This document shows, piece after piece, positions 1,434-50,220 of a stretch of DNA of 64,000 nucleotides. Position numbers and translations under genes: made by a program. The notes under the pieces are model-generated. The model was not told the origin of the DNA. It was given only the letters and a program-made list of their open reading frames with translations, and searched no databases. Numbering within the stretch: position 1 is the stretch's first letter; each line of letters begins with the position of its first letter. This stretch comes from Nanobdellota archaeon (GTDB lineage Archaea; Aenigmatarchaeota; Aenigmatarchaeia; Aenigmatarchaeales; Aenigmatarchaeaceae): contig JAHIEG010000004.1 of the NCBI GenBank assembly GCA_018901655.1, positions 4,267-68,266 of the forward strand. The letters run 5' to 3'.

Positions 1434-1962
1434 TTTATTCCATTTCATATTTCCAATAATTGGAGCGCTTGCTGCTAAAGTTCACATTAAACATCCAATT
1501 AGAAATATTTTACTTGTTGCTGCACTTACGGTTCTAATTGATATTGATCATTTTATTGGACTAGAAAGAGCAACGTTTCACAATGTTTTTATAACAGTTC
1601 TTTTACCAATCGCGTTTATTGTGTGGGCATTTTCTCTTAAAAAGAATTTTTACATGAAAGCTTTTTCAATACTATTATTAATATTCCTTTCAAGCCATGT
1701 AATGTTAGACGTATTTACTGAACCAGGAGTTGCATTACTCTATCCATTTAGTTCTGAATATTATTCAATAGCATTTAATGTAGCAGTTCCTCTTACAAGT
1801 CAATTTGCAAGTGAAGGTTTAATCATATCATCAATTAGTATTGGGATATTATTATTTTTCATATTAGTTATACTCCCATGTTATTTCTTAGATGAGATAA
1901 TAGTTATTATGGAAAAGAAACATGAAAGTTTTTGGAAAGCTGTTAAAGATTTAAAGCATTAA
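1426..1962 (+). CDS. membrane-bound metal-dependent hydrolase-like protein (DUF457/YdjM-like), polytopic membrane
   Basis: Hydrophobic throughout with a conserved H…D…DIDH motif pattern. Start overlaps the pheT stop. Confidence 0.4.
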   Translation: MDSLFHFIFPIIGALAAKVHIKHPIRNILLVAALTVLIDIDHFIGLERATFHNVFITVLLPIAFIVWAFSLKKNFYMKAFSILLLIFLSSHVMLDVFTEPGVALLYPFSSEYYSIAFNVAVPLTSQFASEGLIISSISIGILLFFILVILPCYFLDEIIVIMEKKHESFWKAVKDLKH

Positions 1963-2752
1963 ACCATCCATCCAAATACTCTTTCAAACCAGTTTCCTTC
2001 TTTTTCTACAAACTCTGAACCAGAAATTTGTGCAGCCAATCTTCTAAACTCTTTAGATGATTTAGAACTTGGACTATTTTTTACAACTGGTATCTTACAC
2101 GCAATAGATCTTGGAATAGCAATATCTTCTGGAATAATAGAAATAATAGGTTTTTCTAACATGTGCTGAACATTTTCTATACTCATTTCATGTTTTAATC
2201 CTCTATATCGATTGATAACAATTCCTCGTACTGGTGTTCCAAATTGTTCAGCAATTTTAACAGTTTTTAATGCATCTGTTACTGCTGGAAGTTCTGGATT
2301 TGTTACAACTATAATTTCATCAGCAACGTTTATTGCAGCTAATGCTTCTTTACCAAGTCCTGCTGCTGCATCTATGATTATAATATCTGCTCTTCCTAAA
2401 AGATTAAGCATAACAGAATAAAGTTTTTCAATTCCAGTCTCTGCCATATCATCTGTCTTTAAAGAAGCTGGAATAATTTTTAATCCTGATTCGTGTTCAT
2501 ATATTGCTTCTGTTGCATCTACATCTCCTCTAAGTACGTCGTGTAAAGTTACTGGATAAAATGGTATTCCAAGATGTAGTGATAAATTTGGTGTTGTAAC
2601 ATTTGCATCTACTATTATTACTCTTTTTCCTTGTTTTATTAGAGACAATCCCAGGTTGGTTACAGTAGTGGTTTTTTCGGCCAAAAAAACAATATTTTAT
2701 TGGATTCCGACACCGCCCTTTCCCGAAATTATGCTTAGGACTCTAGTCATTT
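1959..2752 (-). pseudogene. minD: MinD/ParA-family cell-division ATPase with interrupted reading frame: a 30-nt insertion carrying an in-frame TAA sits inside the Walker A motif
   Basis: ATG at 2752 (overlapping the TGA of the upstream gene as ATGA) encodes MTRVLSIISGKGGVG, then IQ*NIVFLAE, then KTTTVTNLG… The rest of the protein is an intact MinD. The track ORF 1959..2684 starts at a TTG inside the insertion. Confidence 0.6.
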
Positions 2753-3887
2753 TTTTCTCCTCCACATAGCTGGTTTTGTTCTACTAAACTCAATTTTTTC
2801 GATTAGTTCTTTATTTCGAAATTTAGTTAAGTGTTTATACACAGCTGTATATGTCATATCTAATTGGAACATTAAGCTATAAATGGTTTTCGGTTTATCT
2901 AATTTATCATAAACTAACCACTGCCCTCTACCATCTTTTAATTTAAATTTCTGATAACTATTTAACAAATTATTTAAGCTATTTATTTTGTCTTTTGAAG
3001 TGAATCCAATTACATCTCTATATTTCACAAAATTGTCATATCCATGAATTCCTAGAACCAGCTGTATTGTTCTTCCGTTTTTACCAATTAGTATATTTTC
3101 TTGTCTTATAGAAGTAACCTCTATTCCGAGTTCTTCTATCAGTTGTCTGAGTTGGTTCATAAACTTGTAAAACGAATCCATATAATTCTCATTTTTAGAG
3201 AGTTTGAAAAGAATTTCCTTGCTACCAACCTTAACTGTAGACTCGTCGTCAAATAGTGCTCTAATAAAACTTTTCCTAACTTCCCTATTTCCACTTCTTA
3301 TCCATTTTGGGATCTCAAATTCTGTCGTAATCTTGTTTCCTACTATCGCCCCGGCCAAATTAAGTGTATCGCCTATTATTCTACTATAGCCTCTTGTTAT
3401 AACCTTATAGAAATGTTCATGGTAATGAGCGCATCTAAATATTTGTTTTATATATTTTAAAACTTCTTCTTGTAATTCATAACTACCATTAGTATACTCA
3501 AAACAGTGTGATTTACTATTGATATGACCATCACTTAAAGCGTGCCCGACTAATGATGCTAATTCTTTAGAAAGTTTTACTGGAAACTGGTCTAGTGTAA
3601 AAAAACAACCATTTTTATTATTTAATCTTATTTTTTTTAATATTATTCTTTAAAACTTTAATATCAATTTTGAGAACTTTACATACATCAAGCCATTTAT
3701 CAAATGTTATAAATCTATTTTCTTTAAGAATTTCTCCAAAAGAAGATTTGCATAAAACTTTTGTCTGAATTTCAAACTGTCTTAAAGAACCATATTTCTC
3801 ACAAATTCTATATTTAACAAGATTTCTAAACCCCTGTGTTAATTCTAAATAATAATTAAGACCTATCAAATTTTCTAGTTTTATCAT
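2749..3887 (-). pseudogene. N-terminal XRE-like HTH fused to a double-motif LAGLIDADG domain; two reading frames joined only by a +1 shift in an A8 run (plus-strand T8 at 3631..3638)
   Basis: Frame 1 (3887..3615) gives an HTH (…LRQFEIQTKVLCKSSFGEILKENRFITFDKWL…). Frame 2 (3649..2749) gives …LASLVGHALSDGHI… (LAGLIDADG motif 1) and …IRALFDDESTV… (motif 2). Paralogous to the intact gene at 49009..50220. Confidence 0.55.
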
Positions 3888-4002
3888 TAATTATCTGTAA
3901 ACAAAGTTGGGTATAAATGTTCTTTTACTCAGAAAGTAGAGAAATCACAGTAATAACTCTTGTCATAGTAAATTATGGTATAACAAAGAATAAAAAGCTT
4001 AT

Positions 4003-4311
4003 TTACGCGAGTTTCTCTAATGCTTCTTCCCAACGTCTCCTTACATCTGGTGTAAGAATTGGCATATTGTCTCTTGGTCTCCTTGGCATACAAGATTTGG
4101 TTCTATCTATACCAAGAATTTCGTCCATAAGACCTGGATCTAATACTATTTCACGCAATTCTATCAAATAATCTATATATTTTTCAACCCCGCCCATATG
4201 TTCTCTAGGAATATTTTTATACTCTTGACAGAATTCGCTAGATGTAATTTCGCGTTTTTCATATTTTTCATAAAGTTCTTTAACTTTATTGAGAGAAGGA
4301 TATTTGTCCAT
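4003..4311 (-). CDS. hypothetical protein
   Basis: 102-aa ORF with coding-like composition and no recognisable motif. Confidence 0.35.
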   Translation of the reverse strand: MDKYPSLNKVKELYEKYEKREITSSEFCQEYKNIPREHMGGVEKYIDYLIELREIVLDPGLMDEILGIDRTKSCMPRRPRDNMPILTPDVRRRWEEALEKLA

Positions 4312-4343
4312 AATACTAATTAGTAGAAAAACTATTTATAATA

Positions 4344-4616
4344 CTACTCCAATTTCCCTTCTTGAATATATTCGTCTATTATTTCAGTTAACATGCATAC
4401 TGGAATTCTAAGACTCTGATGCAAATCTGCTATATCAGATGTTCCCTTCATTTGAAAATACATCGCAACTTCTTTCTTTGCGTCTTCATAAACTATCTCT
4501 CTTTCAATAACTTCTCCTTCAATAATCTTGCCATCCTCAATAATCATTGTTTTAACCATAATACTAATTTGAAGAAAAGGGTATTTATATCCAGCCCATC
4601 CACATTGAAATTCCAA
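4344..4616 (-). CDS. hypothetical protein (true start possibly the internal MVKTMIIEDG…)
   Basis: ORF only. Confidence 0.3.
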   Translation of the reverse strand: MEFQCGWAGYKYPFLQISIMVKTMIIEDGKIIEGEVIEREIVYEDAKKEVAMYFQMKGTSDIADLHQSLRIPVCMLTEIIDEYIQEGKLE

Positions 4617-5661
4617 GTGCGAACATTAGTAAAGCGATTAAAAGATGAGTGTACTTCCAAACGTTCTTTCTAACCTTACTCGTCTTTTCAATACTCGAAA
4701 CTCCAAAATATATCATAAATACAAGTCCGATCATTGGTAAAATAAATATCAAATTATAAACCAATAAAAGTGGTAAAGCTGTTGTCCAAACCATTTCAGA
4801 TAATATCCCTCCAGCTACAAAGTATGGACCAATTGTACAAGGAGTTAAAAAGAGTGAAACGATTAAACCTGTTACAAATGCTCCAGGCACTGATGCTGTT
4901 TTTGATATTATTGCTCTCATCTTTGGTCTCCAACCTAAAGGCACTTCTGCTAAAGGCTTATCTGGAGTAAAGAAATCTTTCAAATTAATCAGACCTAATA
5001 AGATTGCAAAGCTTGCTAAAACTTTATAGAGAATTGATGAATTAAAACTTGCTAAACCACTTAATGATTTAAATCCTAAAACTATAAGTGATCCAAAAAT
5101 AAAATACACAGAAAATACTGCTAATGCAAAAGCAAGTCCTGCCCAAAGTATCTTTTTCTTTTTATCTGGATTTCTAATCATTATTGCTGTAAGTAACATT
5201 GTAAGAACTGCTAATTCACAAGGACTGACTGCATCTGCTGCAGCAAGTGCCATTAACTTTCCTAAATGCATTTCTTCAGGCTCGTTTATACATGTTGGTG
5301 TTTGACATCCAAATTCAATTGCTTTTTCTATCTCAACATCAAGTCCGTTTATACAAGGAATATCTCCTACACAAGTATAATCTGATATAAAGACTCTAGG
5401 AACTGAACCCCATTCGTTAGTTGGAACTCCATAATCAGTTAGCATATGTTTAAACAATTCTTGTTCAACTGATGCATCGTGTTTTATTAAAGTTAAATTA
5501 GTATATTTGACAGCCCAATCTTCTAAATATGGTTCTAAATTAACACAGTGAGGACACCCTTCTAGTCCAAAGTAATGTAATTCATGAACCTCTGCTAGCG
5601 CAGGTGTAACTAGTAAAATGAAAATCAAAATTGGAATTAAGATTTTATTCATACTGTTCAT
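4585..5661 (-). CDS. secreted thioredoxin-fold domain (CPHC) fused to a CcdA/DsbD-type transmembrane thiol-disulfide electron transporter
   Basis: N-terminal signal peptide and a CPHC redox motif, followed by a polytopic domain with the two conserved Cys of CcdA (…SPCELAV…, …TPCTIGP…). Confidence 0.7.
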   Translation of the reverse strand: MNSMNKILIPILIFILLVTPALAEVHELHYFGLEGCPHCVNLEPYLEDWAVKYTNLTLIKHDASVEQELFKHMLTDYGVPTNEWGSVPRVFISDYTCVGDIPCINGLDVEIEKAIEFGCQTPTCINEPEEMHLGKLMALAAADAVSPCELAVLTMLLTAIMIRNPDKKKKILWAGLAFALAVFSVYFIFGSLIVLGFKSLSGLASFNSSILYKVLASFAILLGLINLKDFFTPDKPLAEVPLGWRPKMRAIISKTASVPGAFVTGLIVSLFLTPCTIGPYFVAGGILSEMVWTTALPLLLVYNLIFILPMIGLVFMIYFGVSSIEKTSKVRKNVWKYTHLLIALLMFALGISMWMGWI

Positions 5662-5736
5662 AGAATTATTTAACGGTGTTACATTTAAAATATGTGGATT
5701 CTGAGGAATGTTACTAAAAGGTGTGGTGGACTTAAA

Positions 5737-5934
5737 CTATTTTTTCCAAATTCTTATTTGCACCATTACTGCACAAACCAATGATATGATCAAAAAGTAC
5801 CAAGGATTGATACTATTAACCCAATTCATTAAAGTAGGCCAGATTGTTATTGCAAATAATACAAAAGCTACAACAGCAATTTTTACTAAAGCTAAATCAA
5901 GTAGTTTTAACTTTTTCATTTGTTTTTCAAACAT
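5737..5934 (-). CDS. small membrane protein (2 TM), hypothetical
   Basis: 65-aa hydrophobic ORF, ending near the tRNA 3' end. Weak. Confidence 0.25.
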   Translation of the reverse strand: MFEKQMKKLKLLDLALVKIAVVAFVLFAITIWPTLMNWVNSINPWYFLIISLVCAVMVQIRIWKK

Positions 5935-5954
5935 GTTTTCACCTCTAATTATAA

Positions 5955-6032
5955 TGGTGCCCTCGACGGGATTCGAACCCGCGACTTTCTGATTAGAAGT
6001 CAGACACTCTATCCAAGCTGAGTTACGGGGGC
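5955..6032 (-). tRNA. tRNA-Arg (anticodon UCU), CCA encoded
   Basis: Reverse complement folds as a cloverleaf: acceptor GCCCCCG/CGAGGGC (one C·A mismatch at 5:68), D-arm ACTC…GAGT, anticodon stem TCTGA/TCAGA with loop CTTCTAA, T-arm GCGGG-TTCGAAT-CCCGT, 3' ACCA. Confidence 0.85.
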
Positions 6033-6081
6033 ATAATAAATATAGTAATTTAATAGAATTTAAAAGAATAAAAGGATGGGT

Positions 6082-6753
6082 CTATTGACCCTGCTGTCCA
6101 GAACTATTACCTTCAAATCCGTTTCCTTCTGTGTTCTGTTCTTGGTTCTGGGTTTCTCCCTGATTTTGCTCTTGATTCATTTCTTGTGCACAGTCGCATG
6201 TTTCTCCTTCTAAACAATCCCCTTGACATGTTTCTACTCCTGTACAACCTCCATCACATTCTTGAAGTCTTTCTCTTATTCTTTCTCTAATCTGTGATGT
6301 TGATTCTATTGCTTGATCTATTCCTGCTCGAGCTTCTTCAGGCACTCTCGATCTAAGTCTTTGTAAAACCTGTGTTTGTGTCTGTGCTGCTTCTTGAACT
6401 TTTGCTCCAAGTTCTGTTGTTGTTTCAGTAACTTCTTCTATATTTTCAATATACTCTTGAACTTTTTCCATTCTATATTGATATCTTTCAACCAATTGAT
6501 TCGTATATTGATATTCTCCAAGTTCATCTAATTCTTCAACTTCAGCCATTCTTCTAAGAGCATAAGCATATTGTAGTTTTGCTTTAGCTTCTTGTCTAAA
6601 TGTAAATGCAAGTGCTAAACCTTCTCCCATTTTCTTAAATCCATAAGACCAATGAGTTGGAAGTGCTCCTACATCTACTCCGAAGCTATTTGCTGCAACT
6701 ACAGGTGTTGCAAATACTAAGATTCCCATAATTATTGCTAATATTTTTTTCAT
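6082..6753 (-). CDS. secreted coiled-coil protein with a Cys-rich, Gln/Glu-rich C-terminus; hypothetical
   Basis: Signal peptide MKKILAIIMGILVFATPVVA, heptad-like central region, C-terminal CDGGCTGVETCQGDCLEGETCDC. Confidence 0.5.
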   Translation of the reverse strand: MKKILAIIMGILVFATPVVAANSFGVDVGALPTHWSYGFKKMGEGLALAFTFRQEAKAKLQYAYALRRMAEVEELDELGEYQYTNQLVERYQYRMEKVQEYIENIEEVTETTTELGAKVQEAAQTQTQVLQRLRSRVPEEARAGIDQAIESTSQIRERIRERLQECDGGCTGVETCQGDCLEGETCDCAQEMNQEQNQGETQNQEQNTEGNGFEGNSSGQQGQ

Positions 6754-16600: not shown

Positions 16601-17227
16601 ATGAATCTAAAAGAAGCAATAAAAGAAGCAAGAAACACAGAACGTAAGTTTAAACAAACTTTTGATATTATAATTAATCTTAAAAATATTGATCTAAAAA
16701 GACCAGAAAATAGAATTAAGACCGATGTTAATTTACCAAAAGGATTAGGAAAACCATCTAAAATTGGTTTAATAGTTGATGCATTAGCTTCTGAAACAGT
16801 TGGTTTGGAAAATGTAATAGTAATTAAAAGGGACGAGTTAATAAAACTAGATAAAAAGAAAATTAAAAAATTATGTTCTGAAGTAAAAATGTTCTTAGCA
16901 GAAGCACCACTTATGCCTCTAGTTGGTAAACACATGGGTCAGGTATTAGCACCAAAAGGAATGATGCCAAAACCAATTCCAACTACATTAAAGGATCTAA
17001 AAGGACCAATTGCTAAGTTCACAAATGATGTTAAAATTAATGTTACAAAATCACCAACAGCACAAGCACCACTTGGTACAGTTGATATGTCTGATGAAGA
17101 TATTGAAATAAATGCTAAAGCTGTTATCAATGCTGTTTCAGCTGCTCTGCCAAGGGGTAAAGAACAAATAAAATCATTGTTGATTAAAACAACTATGGGT
17201 AAGCCTGTGAGGGTGAGCAAATGGTAG
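16601..17227 (+). CDS. rpl1: 50S ribosomal protein L1 (uL1)
   Basis: uL1 family similarity throughout. GC-richer structured leader immediately upstream (16570..16600). Confidence 0.9.
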   Translation: MNLKEAIKEARNTERKFKQTFDIIINLKNIDLKRPENRIKTDVNLPKGLGKPSKIGLIVDALASETVGLENVIVIKRDELIKLDKKKIKKLCSEVKMFLAEAPLMPLVGKHMGQVLAPKGMMPKPIPTTLKDLKGPIAKFTNDVKINVTKSPTAQAPLGTVDMSDEDIEINAKAVINAVSAALPRGKEQIKSLLIKTTMGKPVRVSKW

Positions 17228-18120
17228 GACGTGAATCTGTAAGTCAGGCTAAGATTGAACAAACATTAGATTTAACTAAAAACATTAATGAAAAAAAAAT
17301 AATCGCAATATTTGATGTTACTGGAATGCCTGCAGCTGCTTTACAAAAAATAAAGTACGAGCTTTATGGAACTGCTGACCTGAAATCTGTAAAAAAAAGT
17401 ATGTTGCTAAAAGCAGTTGATGCCTCTGAAAAAAACAGTCTTAAAGAATATGTAGTTGGTCAACCAGGAATAATATTTACTACAATGAATCCATTCAAAC
17501 TTTACAAAGTAATACAAAAAAGTAAAACAAATGTAACTGCAAAAGCTGGAGATATTGCACCAAATGATATTGAAGTTAAGGCAGGACCGACAGAATTAAT
17601 GCCTGGGCCAGCGATATCTACATTATCAAAAGCTGGTCTTCAGTCAAAAGTTGAAGGTGGAAAAATAGCAGTATTGAAAGATAAGGTTGTTGCAAAAGCT
17701 GGAGATAAAATAACAGCAGAACTAGCATCTGTATTAAGTATGTTAAAGATTGAACCAATGGAAGTTGGTCTTAATCTTAAAGCTGTATATGAAGATGGAG
17801 TTATTTACACGAGTGACATATTGTCAATAGATGAAGAGCAGGTACTAAATGATATGGTTTCAGGATATCATCGTGCAATTAATCTATCAATTGAAAGTGG
17901 ATTCATAACAAAAGAAGCAGTACCAATAATGATTACAAAAGCTTTCAATGAAGCAAGAAGTTTAGCACTTGAAGCTGGAATTGTAAGTAAAGATATTATT
18001 GGAGAAATACTTGCAAAAGCTGTTGCTGAAATGAAATCAGTTGAAGACAAAGTTGGTCCAATTAAAGTTGAAGAAACTAAAGAAGAAGTAGTTTCAGAAA
18101 ATACAGAGGTGAAAGAATAA
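17221..18120 (+). CDS. rpl10: 50S ribosomal protein L10/P0 (uL10)
   Basis: P0 family. Acidic C-terminal tail. Confidence 0.9.
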   Translation: MVGRESVSQAKIEQTLDLTKNINEKKIIAIFDVTGMPAAALQKIKYELYGTADLKSVKKSMLLKAVDASEKNSLKEYVVGQPGIIFTTMNPFKLYKVIQKSKTNVTAKAGDIAPNDIEVKAGPTELMPGPAISTLSKAGLQSKVEGGKIAVLKDKVVAKAGDKITAELASVLSMLKIEPMEVGLNLKAVYEDGVIYTSDILSIDEEQVLNDMVSGYHRAINLSIESGFITKEAVPIMITKAFNEARSLALEAGIVSKDIIGEILAKAVAEMKSVEDKVGPIKVEETKEEVVSENTEVKE

Positions 18121-29278: not shown

Positions 29279-30120
29279 AAAACTTTGATACAAAAAAAAC
29301 CAATACTTGGTGTCCAGGATGTTTTAATTTTGCTATTCTTAATTCTATGAAGGAAACCCTAACAAACTTAGTTAATCAAAAGAAAATTAAAAAAGAAAAT
29401 ATTGTTTCTGTTTGTGGAGTAAGTTGCGCAGGAAAAATATTTGACTACATTAATGTAAACGGTTTCTTAAGTTTACATGGAAGAGTAATTGCTTCTGCAA
29501 TTGGGATTAATATCGGTAATCCTAATTTAAAAATAATTGGATTTTCAGGTGATGGTGAAACATATTCTGAAGGTTTAAATCATCTAGCACAAGCAGCAAG
29601 AAAAAATATTGATATGACTATGATAGTACATGATAATCAAGCATTTGCATTAACAACAGGACAACAAACCCCAACAACAGAAATAGGATACAGAGGGAAA
29701 TCTAATCCTAGTGGTACGTTTGACAAACCATTAAATCCAATAAGTTTTGCTCTAATATGTGGTGCTACATTTGTAGCAAGAACAACAGCAACTAACCCAA
29801 AACATATGAACAAGGTTTTTGAAGAAGCAATTAAACATAAAGGTTTTGCGTTTGTAGAAGTTTTACAACCATGTATAACGTTTCATAATAATATGGACTA
29901 CTTTAGAAAAAACATTTATGAAATAAAATTAAATGACTTTGACGGAGCAATGAAGCTTGCACTTGAATGGGATTACAATTTAAATGGAGCTAAAATACCA
30001 ATTGGTATATTTTACAAAGAGAGTAGAAAAACTTTTGTTGAACAATTACCAAACAAAGGTCCTTTCTATAATATTAAAAGAAGTACAAAAATTAATAATC
30101 TGATTAACGAGTTTAAATAA
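29269..30120 (+). CDS. korB: 2-oxoacid:ferredoxin oxidoreductase, beta subunit (TPP-binding)
   Basis: TPP motif …FSGDGETYSEGLNHL… and conserved Cys (…CPGC…). Confidence 0.85.
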   Translation: MEIKNFDTKKTNTWCPGCFNFAILNSMKETLTNLVNQKKIKKENIVSVCGVSCAGKIFDYINVNGFLSLHGRVIASAIGINIGNPNLKIIGFSGDGETYSEGLNHLAQAARKNIDMTMIVHDNQAFALTTGQQTPTTEIGYRGKSNPSGTFDKPLNPISFALICGATFVARTTATNPKHMNKVFEEAIKHKGFAFVEVLQPCITFHNNMDYFRKNIYEIKLNDFDGAMKLALEWDYNLNGAKIPIGIFYKESRKTFVEQLPNKGPFYNIKRSTKINNLINEFK

Positions 30121-32963: not shown

Positions 32964-33327
32964 ATGATAAATTGGAAAGATTGCCCCTACAGGGGTAAGG
33001 GGTTTTCAGATGAAAATGTATGTATAATAGATCCAGAACACTTTACAATAGATGATTTAAAATTCGATAAAATAGAAGCTGATACATTAAAAAAAAAGGT
33101 CTGGAATAGAAAAATCTTGGAGAATCTATCGAAATAATATCAAACGTATCTACAATGAGTGCCCCCATTTATCTAAAAGTGCTATATATAATAAAGAAGA
33201 AAGAATAGCTTGGTTTTTAGATAGTATAAAAATATATGAAAATGTTCAAAAGGTCATCCCAAATGAGAGCATCGTAGAATTAGGTATGAGGTGCCCGTGT
33301 CTATATCCAAATAAATATCAGGAATAG
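32964..33327 (+). pseudogene. Cys-containing small ORF broken by a +1 frameshift in an A8 run (33090..33097)
   Basis: Frame A is MINWKDCPYRGKGFSDENVC…DTLKKK. Frame C continues …SGIEKSWRIYRNNIKRIYNECPHLSK…RCPCLYPNKYQE*. Removing one A fuses them (about 120 aa). Confidence 0.35.
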
Positions 33328-47351: not shown

Positions 47352-49034
47352 TTATCTTAACTTAACAGCAACTCCTTTCTTAAAATCTTTAATTTCTTTT
47401 TTGTTTAACAACGCCATTCCTGTTATAATTGGTTTACTATCTGAAACTATCAATACTTCTTCTCCTGGATAAATATCATCTGTTCGTTCAACAAACTTAG
47501 TAAATAATGATCTTCCACTTTTTACATGCTCAAGTATCTCTGATGGTACTTCAACTGTTTTCATCTTAATATATTTTGATCCTTCTAAGGTTGGTATAAA
47601 GAATCCATCATGTGGTCTTATTGTTCCAAGTAATTTTTTGTTTTTCCAAACTCTTCTAATCCGTCCTGTCTTTCTTGAAACTTCTGTGCTAAAACTTGTT
47701 TTAAACTTTGAACTAAATTGATATTCAATTGTTTTATTTACAATATCACTATTACTTGCTTTACCAATTGGTTCAACCTGATCTGGAACTATTGATTGTC
47801 CAAATGGATAAACTCCTTTTAATTCGATTGGTACTTTTCCAAACGGTTTCTTAACAAAATATTTTTTAGATTTAACTCCTTTAACCATTTTCTTAGCTCT
47901 TAGAACTTCTGGTCTATATTTCGATTCTTCGCCACACCATCGCAATGCGGATTTCTTCGAGATTGGTTCGTTCCCCAACAAATATTTTCTATATTTTTTG
48001 AGAACAAATTGTAACGCCTCAAGCAATGCCGGATGTGCTCTTGCTCTTTGTTGTACTAACTCCCACAAACTATTATCTCTGATTGCTTGGCGTATGGATC
48101 TTAATTCCGCGAATGTAACATAAAGATTGTGTCTTGCCAATTCTTTTACTTTTGCTGAATTTTCTAATTCTATTAATTCTTTAACCGTGTATTTTGTGCA
48201 TATCGGACATGAACATGGCAACTCTATTAATTCTTCTAATCTATGCGTTCCGTAATTTGTCATATATCTATTATCATATGCGTATAATGCGTAGGCAGCT
48301 GAATCAAAAATATCAGAACCTATGGCAACAGCCAAACTCATAAAACTAGGCAGACCCAAGCCAAATGCGTGGAGCGGCTTATTTGAAGGTATGTTCATTT
48401 TCGCTGTTATAATCTGCTGGCATACTGTTTTAAAATCATATCTTATCATCTTCGGCACAATCGAACCAATAGCATATGCATCAAAATCTAATTTGCCAAC
48501 GGATTTTGCACATTTTTTAACAAGATCAAGGTGTTCTCCGCCTTGTATCGGAGCCATCCATGATATTTTTGAATTCTCTGTTAATAATTTGCATTCTTTC
48601 GCTCTTTTAATTGTTTCGAGCACTGTTTTTTTCGCGTCATCATATTTTAAATCTCCAGATGTAACATCTAAAAAGGTTCCAATGTCTGGTTTTATTTTCT
48701 CTTGAAATTCAATTATCTCTTTATTTGTTAAATTAATAGACGACCCGAACATTGTTTGATATGCCCCACTGTCTGTCATTATCATACCGTCAAAATTCAA
48801 GAAATCATGAAGTCCTCGTTTCGAAATATCTTCCATTAACCTTGATCTTTTAATCAGATACGCATTTGTAATTATTAGTTTCGCCCCAAATTCTTTTTTT
48901 AATTCGGCTGGCGTTATTATCATTTTCCCAGGATTTATTACTACAGCCAGTTCTGGGAGCACTATGTTCCGATCACCCAAAGTTAGTTTAGATATTCGAC
49001 CTGAACAATCACGAGAGAGAAGTTCTAACATCAT
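47352..49034 (-). CDS. tgtA: archaeosine tRNA-guanine transglycosylase (ArcTGT) with C-terminal PUA domain
   Basis: TGT catalytic barrel, Zn site …CSCPICTKY…, C-terminal PUA-like segment. 560 aa. Confidence 0.9.
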   Translation of the reverse strand: MMLELLSRDCSGRISKLTLGDRNIVLPELAVVINPGKMIITPAELKKEFGAKLIITNAYLIKRSRLMEDISKRGLHDFLNFDGMIMTDSGAYQTMFGSSINLTNKEIIEFQEKIKPDIGTFLDVTSGDLKYDDAKKTVLETIKRAKECKLLTENSKISWMAPIQGGEHLDLVKKCAKSVGKLDFDAYAIGSIVPKMIRYDFKTVCQQIITAKMNIPSNKPLHAFGLGLPSFMSLAVAIGSDIFDSAAYALYAYDNRYMTNYGTHRLEELIELPCSCPICTKYTVKELIELENSAKVKELARHNLYVTFAELRSIRQAIRDNSLWELVQQRARAHPALLEALQFVLKKYRKYLLGNEPISKKSALRWCGEESKYRPEVLRAKKMVKGVKSKKYFVKKPFGKVPIELKGVYPFGQSIVPDQVEPIGKASNSDIVNKTIEYQFSSKFKTSFSTEVSRKTGRIRRVWKNKKLLGTIRPHDGFFIPTLEGSKYIKMKTVEVPSEILEHVKSGRSLFTKFVERTDDIYPGEEVLIVSDSKPIITGMALLNKKEIKDFKKGVAVKLR

Positions 49035-50220
49035 TTAACCTCCATACAGATTTTTTATTACTTCCAATCCTTTCTATTGTGCCCATTCTTTGTAGATTAT
49101 TAAGATGTTTCCGCATAGTTATTTGTGACCTATCAAATCTTATCGAAAGATCTTTACTTTTAAGAACATCTTTGTTATCAAACTCCTTTAATATTATCTG
49201 TTGAATTTCTCCTTTTTTATATTGTTTATTAAACTTACGAGAAACTAGTGCCACTATCCTTTCTTTTTTGAGCATATGAATGAAACTTACCTTTTCTTTA
49301 AATGTCTTGATTTGATATTGTCCCGTAATTCCGAAACCTAGACATATCCTATCTCTTTCTTTTCTAGATCTCATTTTTCTAACCGCATCGGGACTTACAC
49401 CCAAACCTATCAACATTTTTCTTGTATGTTCCAGAAACTCATTCAGATTTTCTGCTATTTGTGTCTTTTTATCAAAACATATTCTTATGTTATTATGTTT
49501 GTAACATACTGTTCCTTCATCATCAAATAACGCCTGTAAGAATGCTGACTTAATTTCATTTGATCCGTTCAGAATCCAATCTGGTATAAAATATTGTTTC
49601 TCTGTCTTCTTACCATCTGGTGCTCCGCATAAAATTAATAATTTACCGATAACATTCGAAAATGTTATCATAGTTTTTACTTTATTTGTAACGGTTATAA
49701 CTTCTGTTCCAGTGTTTAGATTTTTTCCGAAGACTTTGACGACATCTTTCCTAACACTTTCAACCAACTCCTTTCTTGTATTTGAATATTGAAACTGATT
49801 TGCTCTTTTACTGATATGTCCATCGCCCATCGCATGAGCAACAAGTCTAGCCAAAGCAGCTGATGATACTACTGGCAATTTAACAGGAATCAGTTGATGA
49901 TGCTTACCGCGCATATATTTTATATTTTTCTCAATATCAGAATATGGTATTTCTGATAGCTTTGATATGTTTCTAATCATATGCGAACTAGCTAAAGCCT
50001 CTTCTCTTATTCCTTTTCTGTTTCGAAAGCCATTTTTTATTTCTATCACATGAGAATCGTGCATATTAAATATCTTGGCCAGTTTTTTCCACTCTCCTCC
50101 AGCGTTATATCTTGCTCTGTCAAATAGTTTTTTTCTGAATTCGTCGTTGATGCCGATAAAAATACTGTTTGGTAAATTATCTAATGATATTAAATTCGTG
50201 CGATCCGTCATATAAATCAC
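49009..50220 (-). CDS. free-standing HTH + double-LAGLIDADG + C-terminal winged-helix protein (intact paralogue of 2749..3887)
   Basis: N-terminal …GEWKKLAKIFNMHDSHVIEIKNGFR… HTH, …LARLVAHAMGDGHIS… (motif 1), …LQALFDDEGTV… (motif 2), C-terminal …HLNNLQRMGTIERIGSNKKSVWRL…. Confidence 0.65.
   Translation of the reverse strand: MIYMTDRTNLISLDNLPNSIFIGINDEFRKKLFDRARYNAGGEWKKLAKIFNMHDSHVIEIKNGFRNRKGIREEALASSHMIRNISKLSEIPYSDIEKNIKYMRGKHHQLIPVKLPVVSSAALARLVAHAMGDGHISKRANQFQYSNTRKELVESVRKDVVKVFGKNLNTGTEVITVTNKVKTMITFSNVIGKLLILCGAPDGKKTEKQYFIPDWILNGSNEIKSAFLQALFDDEGTVCYKHNNIRICFDKKTQIAENLNEFLEHTRKMLIGLGVSPDAVRKMRSRKERDRICLGFGITGQYQIKTFKEKVSFIHMLKKERIVALVSRKFNKQYKKGEIQQIILKEFDNKDVLKSKDLSIRFDRSQITMRKHLNNLQRMGTIERIGSNKKSVWRLNDVRTSLS

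What the first reader, a model, noticed from the sequence alone, without database searches (positions are those of the whole stretch)
2749..3887. Free-standing HTH + LAGLIDADG gene broken at an A8 run, paralogous to the intact 49009..50220 gene
Two overlapping frames (HTH; double LAGLIDADG) become a single approximately 380-aa protein if one A is removed from the A8 run at 3631..3638. The intact paralogue at 49009..50220 has the same architecture (XRE-like HTH, LVAHAMGDGHIS / LQALFDDEGTV, C-terminal wHTH). Neither sits in an intron or intein, and neither flanks an obvious target. This looks like a domesticated homing-endonuclease fold used as a DNA-binding regulator, present in at least two copies. 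A second accessory ORF (32964..33327) is also broken by a single extra A in an A8 run. Intact essential genes carry A8/A9 runs without damage (for example rpl10 at 17291..17299 and korB at 29284..29291). The frameshifts may therefore be real, either pseudogenes or transcriptional-slippage sites, rather than systematic homopolymer error.
Basis: partly seen in the sequence, partly recalled or inferred. Interest (0 to 1): 0.6.

Follow-up and report, generated by a model that had tools for sequence, protein, structure and literature searches.

The report
Homing-endonuclease cassette inserted into archaeal minD
The broken gene belongs to a large, undescribed family of stand-alone LAGLIDADG nucleases in tiny DPANN archaea, and it most likely arrived as a mobile cassette that landed inside the cell-division gene minD together with a 30-base intron-like insert.

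Summary
On the minus strand, 2747..3887 encodes a 379-aa protein: XRE-type HTH, double LAGLIDADG core, winged HTH. It is broken by one extra A in an A8 run (3631..3638). The intact copy at 49009..50220 is a 28%-identical paralogue.

The "domesticated regulator with no target" reading is not favoured.
- The family is large: 448 cluster representatives at E<1e-30, and every organism-labelled locus is DPANN apart from three low-scoring hits in bins labelled Methanosarcinales.
- It keeps both catalytic acidic residues in about 99% of 150 divergent members. WhiA has lost them.
- Orthologues always sit directly upstream of a MinD-type ATPase.
- The closest relatives with identical synteny lack the gene.
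- In the window, a fossil of the native minD promoter plus codons 1-9 lies upstream of the LAGLIDADG gene.
- Downstream, minD is split inside its Walker A codons by a 30-nt insert (32 nt in the nearest orthologue). The insert folds as a relaxed bulge-helix-bulge motif, and canonical excision restores GKGGVGKT exactly.

Best reading (about 0.5): a free-standing homing endonuclease gene plus a mini-intron invaded minD, and the nuclease gene is now decaying. Nuclease activity, RNA splicing and the read-level reality of the frameshift remain untested.

The parts
2747..3887 (-). Free-standing LAGLIDADG endonuclease gene (379 aa if one A is removed), frameshifted in this genome
   Evidence: two overlapping frames; intact orthologues of 376-392 aa. 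Pfam LAGLIDADG_3 above cut-off; confident model whose best matches are intein homing endonucleases and WhiA.
3631..3638 (-). A8 run (T8 on the + strand) carrying the +1 frameshift
   Evidence: Orthologues have xTA AAA AT here, with no long run. The sequence is identical in L006 (ENA) and L007 (Logan).
3636..3842 (-). N-terminal XRE-type helix-turn-helix domain (residues ~16-84)
   Evidence: family-profile positions 16-84 match controller protein C.BclI (2b5a), E=4.4e-5; helical bundle with pLDDT above 90.
2951..3589 (-). Double LAGLIDADG core (residues ~100-312). Motif 1 is LASLVGHALSDGH (D119 at 3530..3532). Motif 2 is FIRALFDDES (E215 at 3242..3244).
   Evidence: Conservation across 150 representatives: D119 143/144, E215 acidic 149/150, K300 K/R 142/144, K185 109/150.
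2756..2929 (-). C-terminal winged helix-turn-helix (residues ~320-377)
   Evidence: HTH_5 at E=0.0016, below Pfam's cut-off; matches to the MarR/ArsR-type regulators ZitR and AdcR, to the archaeal winged-helix regulator Lrs14, and to NolR (Foldseek).
3925..4002 (-). Fossil of the native minD promoter and 5' end. ATG at 3964..3966; codons 1-9 read MTRVITVIS and are followed by 4 unrelated codons and TAA.
   Evidence: window 3944..4002 is 91.5% identical over 59 nt to L055 1352-1410 (intergenic region plus the minD start), E=1.6e-18; alignment; local score 49 against a shuffle maximum of 16; no such fossil in six other loci. Homology to L001 starts at 3928.
2705..2750 (-). minD exon 1 (MTRVLSIISGKGGVG plus 1 nt). 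Its ATG overlaps the endonuclease TGA stop (ATGA).
   Evidence: Against L001: 4 identical, 7 synonymous and 4 non-synonymous codons, so it is still under coding selection.
2675..2704 (-). 30-nt intron-like insert in the Walker A codons of minD. It contains an in-frame TAA and is a relaxed bulge-helix-bulge candidate. Boundaries are ambiguous by 1 nt.
   Evidence: insert at the same codon in the window (30 nt) and L001 (32 nt), absent in L002 and L012; the unconstrained MFE of both gives UCGG/CCGA helix, a 3-nt bulge, and a CCAA/UUGG (window) or CCGAU/AUUGG (L001) helix; canonical cleavage positions restore the frame; the chance frequency of this geometry at a fixed site is 5.6e-4.
1959..2674 (-). 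minD exon 2 (KTTTVTNLG... to the stop)
   Evidence: Exon 1 joined to exon 2 scores 250 bits on TIGR01969 archaeal MinD, cut-off 201.75. It is 87% identical to uninterrupted MinD P0179/P0180.
49009..50220 (-). Intact paralogue with the same three-domain architecture. It overlaps the start of the archaeosine tRNA-guanine transglycosylase gene (47352..49034) by 26 nt.
   Evidence: No orthologue above 30% identity in 5.8 billion proteins. NCBI MBU3904764.1.

Best explanation
The gene at 2747..3887 is a free-standing LAGLIDADG homing endonuclease gene (HEG). It belongs to a large, undescribed DPANN-archaeal family. In this family an intein-type double-LAGLIDADG nuclease core has acquired an N-terminal XRE HTH and a C-terminal winged HTH as extra DNA-binding modules.

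In this lineage the gene arrived as a cassette: HEG, then a replacement minD 5' exon of 15 codons, then a 30-nt bulge-helix-bulge mini-intron. The cassette was inserted into the resident minD gene at its Walker A (P-loop) codons. The original promoter and first nine codons of minD were left stranded upstream.

Inferred mechanism: the nuclease cuts HEG-less minD alleles in or near the P-loop coding sequence. Repair from a cassette-bearing donor copies the cassette in. The mini-intron splits the target in the carrier. The tRNA-splicing endonuclease and RtcB ligase remove it from the mRNA, so that MinD is still made.

After fixation there is no selection on the nuclease. The window's copy has acquired a +1 frameshift in a lineage-specific A-run, so it is a very recent pseudogene, rescued at most at a low level by slippage.

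**Shown:** fold, family size, conservation of catalytic residues, gene neighbourhood, presence/absence among relatives, the fossil, the position of the insert, its predicted fold, and restoration of the frame.
**Inferred:** nuclease activity, the target, homing, and RNA splicing.
For: **Fold and catalytic residues**
- LAGLIDADG_3 above cut-off. NCBIfam matches the endonuclease parts of intein-containing RtcB, RFC and GyrA.
- pLDDT 91.8. Foldseek: TliVMA, PI-PfuI, PI-SceI and WhiA.
- D119 143/144, E215 acidic 149/150, D214 149/150 and K300 K/R 142/144 across 150 representatives at 18-46% identity. K300 aligns with PI-PfuI K322. Inactive intein endonucleases and WhiA lose these residues (PMC8966425, PMC3384342).

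**Accessory and mobile**
- L055 (MinD 86%, PheRS-beta 81%, SfLAP 83% identical) and L056/L057 have the same SfLAP-minD-YdjM-PheRS synteny. They have no LAGLIDADG gene and an uninterrupted minD.
- No orthologue above 64% exists, although twelve MinD homologues at 73-87% identity do.
- HEG identity window-L001 is 64%, equal to housekeeping genes (58-64%). Window-L002 HEG is 49% at the same housekeeping distance (59-65%).

**Insertion footprint**
- Native minD promoter plus codons 1-9 upstream of the HEG.

**Linkage to minD**
- Every orthologue with downstream sequence is followed, usually with overlap, by a MinD-type ATPase, even where the upstream genes differ.

**Intron**
- Same codon in two lineages, 30 and 32 nt. 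The BHB-like geometry appears in both unconstrained folds.
- The canonical cleavage rule restores GKGGVG|KTT in both. Chance frequency is 5.6e-4.
- Exon 1 divergence is dominated by synonymous changes.
- 118 of the 120 best MinD homologues are uninterrupted.

**Frameshift**
- The A-run is lineage-specific. The rest of the ORF is intact. The sequence is identical in several assemblies.
Against: - No cleavage assay, no RNA data and no read-level check exist.
- Only two independent intron-bearing sequences are known. They are homologous, so the shared fold is not independent evidence, and there is no double-sided compensatory pair.
- The 3' bulge is relaxed (4-8 nt) and the exon-exon helix is weak. 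Fold z-scores are modest: -0.3 for the window and -2.4 for L001.
- The conserved intron 3' end TTGGCCGAA could also be read as a TTG-Ala-Glu start of a truncated protein, and gene callers do read it that way.
- L002, L012 and the ferredoxin-insert MinD group carry the HEG upstream of an uninterrupted minD. The nuclease therefore cannot simply cut every P-loop sequence, and the long-lasting HEG-minD linkage at 43-64% identity could reflect a host function.
- No family member was found in viral contigs.
- The fossil shows an insertion event but does not prove that an endonuclease caused it.
Confidence: 0.5

Rival explanations
1. Domesticated regulator. The LAGLIDADG saddle and the two HTH modules only bind DNA, and the protein controls the downstream operon (minD here, arcTGT for the paralogue), as WhiA does in Gram-positive bacteria.
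For: - The architecture resembles WhiA: full-length 3hyi is the third-best structural match.
- There are two extra HTH domains.
- Each subgroup has its own conserved downstream gene, often with overlapping stop and start.
- The gene is chromosomal and absent from viral contigs.
Against: - The catalytic D and E, and the Lys that aligns with PI-PfuI K322, are retained in about 99% of divergent members. WhiA lost all of them and cannot cut DNA (PMC3384342).
- The closest relatives express minD without this gene.
- The gene is frameshifted here while minD remains under selection.
- There is an insertion fossil.
- No hit to WhiA Pfam models.
Confidence: 0.2
2. Host-beneficial partner of MinD/ParA-type ATPases. 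The protein would be a site-specific DNA-binding adaptor (a centromere-binding-protein analogue) or a nuclease working with the ATPase in chromosome segregation or positioning.
For: - Strict adjacency to MinD-type ATPases of two subfamilies across about 11 loci whose other neighbours differ.
- Stop/start overlap suggests translational coupling.
Against: - Distant family members are not next to ParA/MinD genes.
- The closest relatives have MinD without it.
- The paralogue sits next to arcTGT.
- There is no precedent for a catalytically intact LAGLIDADG protein acting as an adaptor.
Confidence: 0.1
3. The frameshift is not biological. The true sequence is A7 and the gene is intact, so the break is a homopolymer consensus error shared by assemblies of the same reads.
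For: - All assemblies carrying it are 100% identical over 5-6 kb and may derive from one sample.
- The rest of the ORF has no other lesion.
- A second frame break also sits in an A-run.
Against: - Two different assemblers agree (MEGAHIT and Logan).
- Fourteen other runs of 8 or more, including an A9 in a ribosomal-protein gene, are undamaged.
- If the reads are short-read Illumina data (not checked), consensus errors at A8 would be rare (general knowledge).
Confidence: 0.15
4. Programmed recoding. The A8 run is a transcriptional-slippage or +1 frameshift site that sets the ratio of an 89-aa HTH protein to the full-length nuclease.
For: - The A8 run lies exactly at the domain boundary between the HTH and the nuclease core.
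- A/T-rich genomes tolerate slippage-rescued genes (general knowledge).
Against: - It is not conserved: all 16 orthologues are in-frame without the run.
- A -1 shift gives an immediate stop, so only a +1/-2 shift or deletion of one A restores the frame (sequence).
- No stimulatory structure was sought or found.
Confidence: 0.05

Closest known systems
Intein-associated LAGLIDADG homing endonucleases (PI-PfuI 1dq3, PI-SceI 1ef0, TliVMA 7qsu)
   Same: These are the closest matches in sequence and structure for the double-LAGLIDADG core. The acidic residues at the ends of both LAGLIDADG helices are kept, as is the Lys that aligns with PI-PfuI K322. Like them, it relies on accessory DNA-binding domains.
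   Different: There is no Hint/splicing domain, and the gene is not in-frame inside a host protein. The accessory domains are an XRE HTH and a winged HTH, not the intein DNA-recognition region or stirrup.
WhiA/DUF199 (3hyi), the domesticated LAGLIDADG regulator of Gram-positive bacteria
   Same: A monomeric double-LAGLIDADG fold tethered to a C-terminal HTH. It is chromosomal and free-standing. It is the third-best structural match.
   Different: [quoted passage not shown] This family has an extra N-terminal HTH, is archaeal (DPANN), gives no hit to WhiA Pfam models, and is absent from the closest relatives.
Free-standing homing endonucleases with collaborative (trans) homing: T4 mobE with the I-TevIII intron, and cyanophage F-CphI with the psbA intron
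   Same: A stand-alone nuclease gene lies next to a conserved gene whose coding sequence is split by an intron that lacks its own endonuclease. The proposed logic is the same: the intron interrupts the target and travels with the HEG (PMC2790892, PMC6083498).
   Different: Those cases are phage HNH or EndoVII enzymes paired with self-splicing group I introns. Here it is a cellular archaeal LAGLIDADG enzyme paired with a protein-spliced BHB mini-intron. Cleavage and homing have not been shown.
Archaeal pre-mRNA BHB intron in cbf5 (Crenarchaeota)
   Same: A short intron in a protein-coding gene, bounded by a bulge-helix-bulge motif and patchily distributed among relatives (PMC2738675). Relaxed motifs need broad-specificity EndA enzymes, which DPANN lineages have (PMC5829648).
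   Different: The gene (minD Walker A) and the phylum are different. Only the 5' bulge is canonical. The intron is associated with an adjacent endonuclease gene. There is no RNA evidence yet.
Mobile archaeal rRNA introns encoding LAGLIDADG enzymes (I-DmoI and relatives), and yeast HO endonuclease
   Same: Pairing of a LAGLIDADG nuclease with BHB-bounded introns is the classical archaeal mobile-intron design. HO is an intein-derived LAGLIDADG enzyme that became free-standing and gained a new DNA-binding domain (PMC3384342).
   Different: Here the ORF lies outside the intron and the intron is only 30 nt. HO serves a host function (mating-type switching), which has not been shown here.

Membership tests
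LAGLIDADG homing endonuclease | [quoted passage not shown] | tested here: met
   Pfam LAGLIDADG_3 at 27.1 and 28.8 bits, cut-off 22.5. The secondary-structure order of the AF2 model fits the fold. Foldseek E=1.8e-9 to 3.7e-7 against intein endonucleases.
LAGLIDADG homing endonuclease | Metal-binding acidic residue at the C-terminal end of each LAGLIDADG helix | tested here: met
   D119 (..SDGH) and E215 (..FDDES) are present in the window. They are invariant in 30 relatives and present in 143/144 and 149/150 of divergent representatives.
LAGLIDADG homing endonuclease | Mobile-element behaviour: presence/absence at one site among close relatives, lying within or next to a conserved target gene | tested here: met
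   Absent in L055 and L056/57, which share the synteny. Insertion fossil found. This was shown for one locus only.
LAGLIDADG homing endonuclease | Site-specific double-strand cleavage of the element-free allele | not testable with these tools
   Needs purified protein and L055-type minD DNA.
Intein | Hint splicing blocks and an in-frame insertion inside a host protein | tested here: not met
   The protein starts with an HTH domain and has its own start and stop. NCBIfam hits cover only the endonuclease segment of intein-containing proteins.
WhiA/DUF199 | LAGLIDADG fold plus a C-terminal HTH | tested here: met
   This is a similarity of architecture only.
WhiA/DUF199 | [quoted passage not shown] | tested here: not met
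   The residues are retained, whereas WhiA has lost them (PMC3384342). No WhiA_N, LAGLIDADG_WhiA or HTH_WhiA hit at E<=1.
Archaeal bulge-helix-bulge intron | A 4-bp central helix flanked by two 3-nt bulges, with cleavage after the second bulge nucleotide | tested here: inconclusive
   The central helix UCGG/CCGA, the 5' 3-nt bulge and the inner helix are present in the MFE of both sequences. The 3' bulge is enlarged and the outer helix is weak, so the motif is the relaxed HBh' type.
Archaeal bulge-helix-bulge intron | Excision at the predicted sites restores a conserved reading frame | tested here: met
   It restores GKGGVGKTT in both the window and L001. The product scores 250 bits on archaeal MinD.
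Archaeal bulge-helix-bulge intron | A spliced RNA and a circular intron are observed, and EndA cleaves the transcript | not testable with these tools
   No transcriptome is available. EndA of this genome was not looked for.
Programmed frameshift or transcriptional slippage site | The slippery run and the two-frame arrangement are conserved in orthologues | tested here: not met
   All orthologues are single-frame and lack the run.
ParA/MinD partner (centromere-binding adaptor) | Obligate co-occurrence with the ATPase across relatives | tested here: not met
   L055 and L056/57 have MinD alone. Distant family members have other neighbours.

The most novel reading that the evidence does not exclude
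A composite mobile element in a cellular archaeon. A free-standing LAGLIDADG homing endonuclease gene travels with a 30-nt bulge-helix-bulge intron that splits the enzyme's own target, the Walker A codons of minD. The host tRNA-splicing machinery removes the intron from the mRNA. This would be the first archaeal counterpart of phage "collaborative homing". It would also be the first protein-gene intron in DPANN archaea known to me (none turned up), and the founding case of a family of hundreds to thousands of such nucleases, each subgroup parked upstream of its own housekeeping gene.
Probability: 0.3. Interest if true: 0.85.

Novelty: new variant of a known kind. Interest (0 to 1): 0.66.

Why it matters
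**Mobile-element load in DPANN genomes.** If the family is active, DPANN genomes are among the smallest cellular genomes, yet they would carry a large and so far unannotated load of free-standing homing endonucleases. The architecture (HTH, LAGLIDADG x2, winged HTH) is new. It is of interest for mobile-element biology, and long-target LAGLIDADG enzymes are also genome-engineering scaffolds.

**Archaeal mRNA splicing.** The minD insert would extend archaeal mRNA splicing beyond the crenarchaeal cbf5 case to a cell-division gene in DPANN. It would also link a BHB intron to an endonuclease encoded outside it.

**Annotation.** Gene callers currently report this MinD as a 241-aa protein lacking its P-loop (MBU3904701.1), and the endonuclease as two fragments. 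Similar mis-calls are likely elsewhere in DPANN bins.

Tried and rejected
- **ParB-like partner of ParA/MinD.** I considered this after seeing the conserved adjacency. I downgraded it when distant homologues showed other neighbours and the closest relatives had MinD alone.
- **Defence system.** PADLOC gave nothing for the fused protein. The paralogue's winged HTH gave only weak CARF/Csa3-type hits.
- **Viral association.** No relatives in IMG/VR.
- **Known RNA family for the insert.** Rfam finds only two tRNAs in the window. A regex for the intron termini finds no second copy in 444 kb of fetched loci.
- **Fossil of arcTGT upstream of the paralogue.** None: score 24 against a shuffle mean of 26.
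- **Fossils upstream of the gene in L001, L002, L012, L042, L047, L005.** None.
- **Third intron candidate P0248 (236 aa).** The gene is simply cut by the contig end.
- **P0301.** It differs from the window's MinD only at residue 1 (L for M), apparently the TTG start read literally. The look-up found nothing and used the last slot.
- **Translational bypass of the 30-nt insert.** Rejected. There is no matching landing codon, and the L001 insert is 32 nt.
- **The two small ORFs (4003..4311, 4344..4616) and the fused 32964..33327 ORF.** No Pfam hit.
- **Literature.** No paper in the library describes this family or a DPANN protein-gene intron.
Full report
**1. What is in the sequence**

The feature lies on the minus strand.
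- An 89-aa ORF runs from the ATG at 3887 to a TAA (3618..3887).
- A second frame is open from 3649 down to the TGA at 2747.
- The two frames overlap at a run of eight A's in the coding sense (T8 at 3631..3638 on the + strand).
- Deleting one A gives a continuous 379-aa protein.

This is not a chance juxtaposition. A search of 5.8 billion proteins returns 17 close hits at 43-64% identity. Fifteen of them are full-length (376-392 aa) and align end to end with the fused sequence; the best is P0001, 64% identity over 100% coverage. The intact gene at 49009..50220 is a true paralogue: 28% identity and E=9e-30. An HMM of the family finds no third copy in the window.

**2. Is the frameshift real?**

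Orthologues read ...N-I-[V/L]-K-I-R... (AAT ATT xTA AAA ATx AGA). The window reads AAT ATT AAA AAA (A)TA AGA. The run was therefore created by a V/L-to-K substitution in this lineage and then lengthened by one A. No orthologue shares either the run or a two-frame arrangement, so a conserved recoding site is excluded. A -1 shift would hit TAA at once. Only loss of one A, or a +1 shift, restores the frame.

The frameshifted sequence is 100% identical in an ENA MEGAHIT contig and in a Logan assembly of SRR6976411. NCBI and JGI gene calls agree with it. Of 16 A/T runs of 8 or more in the window, only this one and the A9 at 33089..33097 coincide with frame breaks. Most of the others lie inside long open frames, including an A9 and an A8 in 17221..18120.

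I therefore think the lesion is real, with probability about 0.8. Only read pile-ups can settle it. Downstream of the break, the first possible start codon (TTG at 3358) lies beyond the first LAGLIDADG helix. As assembled, the gene cannot make a complete nuclease.

**3. What the protein is**

- **Sequence models.** Pfam LAGLIDADG_3 is matched above its cut-off by both copies. NCBIfam matches are confined to the endonuclease inserts of intein-containing RtcB, RFC and GyrA.
- **Structure.** An AlphaFold model built on 30 relatives is confident (pLDDT 91.8). Its best PDB matches are the endonuclease domains of the TliVMA intein, PI-PfuI and PI-SceI, followed by WhiA.
- **Flanking domains.** A family profile matches the XRE-type controller protein C.BclI over residues 16-84. 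It matches winged-helix regulators, mostly MarR/ArsR-type, over residues ~305-376.

There are no intein splicing blocks.

**4. Family size and catalytic residues**

An exhaustive profile search of 1.84 billion cluster representatives gives 7166 hits at E<=1e-3, 2385 at 1e-10 and 448 at 1e-30. The weak tail surely includes intein endonucleases. Of the best 150, 105 have the full three-domain architecture and 19 lack only the C-terminal domain. Of the 30 loci found in species-representative genomes, most are labelled Aenigmatarchaeota, Woesearchaeota or Nanoarchaeia. Several are unclassified archaeal bins, and three low-scoring hits sit in bins labelled Methanosarcinales. The window itself is an NCBI bin labelled "Nanoarchaeota archaeon".

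Conservation across those 150 sequences (18-46% identical to the query):

| Residue | Position | Conservation |
|---|---|---|
| D119 | end of helix 1 | D in 143/144 |
| E215 | end of helix 2 | E or D in 149/150 |
| D214 | helix 2 | 149/150 |
| K300 | after helix alpha-3' | K/R in 142/144 |
| K185 | after helix alpha-3 | K in 109/150 |

K300 aligns with K322 of PI-PfuI. K185 and K300 lie just after helix alpha-3 of each half. That is where I-CreI K98 and PI-SceI K301/K403 sit; this placement is inferred from topology and my own knowledge, not from a superposition.

WhiA has lost exactly these residues and cannot cut DNA (PMC3384342). Degenerate intein endonucleases lose them too (PMC8966425). 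Their near-invariance here is the main argument against a purely DNA-binding role.

**5. Neighbourhood**

In the window the TGA of the gene overlaps the ATG of the next gene (ATGA at 2747..2750). In every orthologue for which downstream sequence exists, the next gene on the same strand, usually overlapping, is a MinD/ParA-superfamily ATPase.
- Archaeal MinD follows in the window, L001, L002/L003/L004/L043 and L012.
- A MinD with an inserted ferredoxin domain follows in L005, L042, L045-L048 and L050.
- The genes upstream of the LAGLIDADG gene differ between these loci.

More distant family members are not next to MinD. Several subgroups nonetheless have their own recurrent downstream gene. Examples, assigned by eye from the translated sequences, are a radical-SAM-like gene in L016, L020, L021 and L025, an Hjc-like gene in L029, and a P-loop NTPase in L023.

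**6. The gene is accessory, and it was inserted**

The closest relatives of this genome that I could find are L055 and L056/L057.
- L055 is 86% identical in MinD, 81% in PheRS-beta and 83% in SfLAP.
- Both have the same order SfLAP - minD - YdjM - PheRS-beta.
- Neither has a LAGLIDADG gene.

This is consistent with the earlier search. No LAGLIDADG orthologue above 64% identity exists in the database, although twelve MinD homologues at 73-87% identity do.

Most telling is window 3944..4002, just upstream of the LAGLIDADG gene. It is 91.5% identical over 59 nt to the L055 intergenic region plus the first 23 nt of L055 minD (E=1.6e-18). It reads promoter-ATG ACA AGA GTT ATT ACT GTG ATT TCT (MTRVITVIS, identical to L055), then four unrelated codons and TAA. 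Homology to L001, the nearest LAGLIDADG-bearing locus, begins 16 nt further on, at 3928. No such fossil exists upstream of the gene in six other loci.

The window's ancestor therefore had an L055-like minD. A cassette was inserted after codon 9.

The window-L001 endonuclease pair is as similar (64%) as the housekeeping genes of the two genomes (58-64%). The window-L002 pair is only 49% identical at the same housekeeping distance. This hints that the cassette is younger than the host split.

**7. The interrupted minD (found in passing, then followed up)**

After the ATGA overlap come 15 codons, MTRVLSIISGKGGVG. Then comes a 30-nt insert containing an in-frame TAA. Then KTTTVTNLG... follows to the end of the 1959..2684 ORF.
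- L001 has a 32-nt, frame-shifting insert at exactly the same codon. Its termini are similar (UCC...UUGGCCGAAA) but its interior is different.
- L002, L012, L055, L056 and 118 of the 120 best MinD homologues are uninterrupted.
- Joining the two parts gives a protein that scores 250 bits on the archaeal MinD model (cut-off 201.75) and reproduces the conserved MTRV..SGKGGVGKTTTVTNLG.

Unconstrained MFE folding of both sequences gives the same motif:
- a 4-bp helix, UCGG (end of exon 1) paired with CCGA (end of the insert);
- a 3-nt bulge, AAU or GAU;
- an inner helix, CCAA/UUGG or CCGAU/AUUGG, capped by unrelated hairpins;
- an enlarged A-rich 3' bulge.

Applying the canonical archaeal rule (cleavage after the second bulge nucleotide) gives an intron at 2675..2704 and the junction GUC GGA A|AA ACC. 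In L001 it gives GUC GGG A|AA ACA. Both restore V-G-K-T. That geometry occurs at a prespecified site and length with frequency 5.6e-4 in this window.

Exon 1 differs between the window and L001 by 7 synonymous and 4 conservative codon changes, with 4 codons identical. It is therefore still selected as coding sequence, which makes sense only if it is joined to exon 2.

Caveats:
- There are only two homologous examples and no double compensatory pair.
- The 3' bulge is relaxed and the outer helix is weak (HBh' type).
- The z-scores are modest.
- TTGGCCGAA could alternatively encode a TTG-Ala-Glu start, which is how annotation pipelines read it.

Relaxed motifs are cleaved by broad-specificity splicing endonucleases, and DPANN lineages carry such variants (PMC5829648). 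The pre-mRNA BHB introns that turned up in the literature I searched are those of crenarchaeal cbf5 (PMC2738675).

**8. Synthesis**

The simplest account of sections 4-7 is that this is a free-standing homing endonuclease gene, not a domesticated regulator. It keeps a complete catalytic set. It is absent from the nearest relatives. It has left an insertion scar inside a highly conserved gene. It sits about 45 nt from an intron that splits the most conserved DNA stretch of that gene. In this genome it has begun to decay, as expected once a homing element is fixed.

The arrangement parallels "collaborative homing" in phages, where a stand-alone endonuclease targets the insertion site of a neighbouring endonuclease-less intron (PMC2790892, PMC6083498). 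It also echoes the classical archaeal pairing of LAGLIDADG enzymes with BHB introns.

Against this reading:
- Several orthologues sit upstream of an uninterrupted minD.
- The linkage to MinD-type genes is old.
- Nothing has been shown biochemically.

I give the mobile-endonuclease reading 0.5, a WhiA-like regulator 0.2, and a MinD-associated host function 0.1. On the separate question of the frameshift, I put it at about 0.15 an artefact, about 0.05 programmed, and otherwise a real recent lesion.

**9. Novelty and score**

The fold and the idea of free-standing LAGLIDADG genes are known. Several things are new, as far as the searchable literature shows:
- the HTH / LAGLIDADG / winged-HTH architecture;
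- its abundance in DPANN archaea;
- the minD insertion footprint;
- the candidate mRNA intron.

I rate it a new variant of a known kind, with interest 0.66.

Noticed in passing
window 2675..2704 (minus strand); L001 4403..4434: minD, directly downstream of the LAGLIDADG gene, is split inside its Walker A codons by a 30-nt insert (32 nt in L001). The insert folds as a relaxed bulge-helix-bulge motif, and canonical excision restores GKGGVGKT. Public annotation calls the gene as a 241-aa MinD without a P-loop (MBU3904701.1).
   Followed up: yes
window 3925..4002 (minus strand): A fossil of the native minD promoter plus codons 1-9 (MTRVITVIS) is stranded upstream of the LAGLIDADG gene. It is 91.5% identical to the L055 intergenic region and minD start.
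   Followed up: yes
window 4003..4584 (minus strand); L056 2729..3478: The gap between the SfLAP/DsbD-like gene and the minD promoter is a variable spot. The window holds two small ORFs with no Pfam hit (4003..4311, 4344..4616). L056/L057 hold a KNTase_C/Pol-beta nucleotidyltransferase gene. L055 holds nothing.
   Followed up: partly
The fused 120-aa product has no Pfam hit. I did not search for homologues.
   Followed up: partly
L016, L020, L021, L025 (each ~3700..6100); L029; L023; L024; L028/L033: Other subgroups of the family each sit just upstream of, and often overlap, a particular housekeeping gene. By eye these are a ~385-aa radical-SAM-like gene (four Woesearchaeota loci), an Hjc-like resolvase, a THEP1-like NTPase, an AlaRS-like gene, and a ~310-aa winged-helix protein. 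I did not test whether relatives lack the endonuclease at these loci.
   Followed up: no
window 49009..49034: The intact paralogue overlaps the start of the archaeosine tRNA-guanine transglycosylase gene (47352..49034) by 26 nt. It has no relative above 30% identity in 5.8 billion proteins, so it is an orphan branch of the family.
   Followed up: partly
L005 7155..7511; L042 2953..3831; L046, L047, L048, L050: In about half of the orthologue loci the downstream ATPase is a MinD-superfamily protein with an inserted 4Fe-4S ferredoxin domain rather than classical archaeal MinD. The endonuclease gene still overlaps its start.
   Followed up: partly
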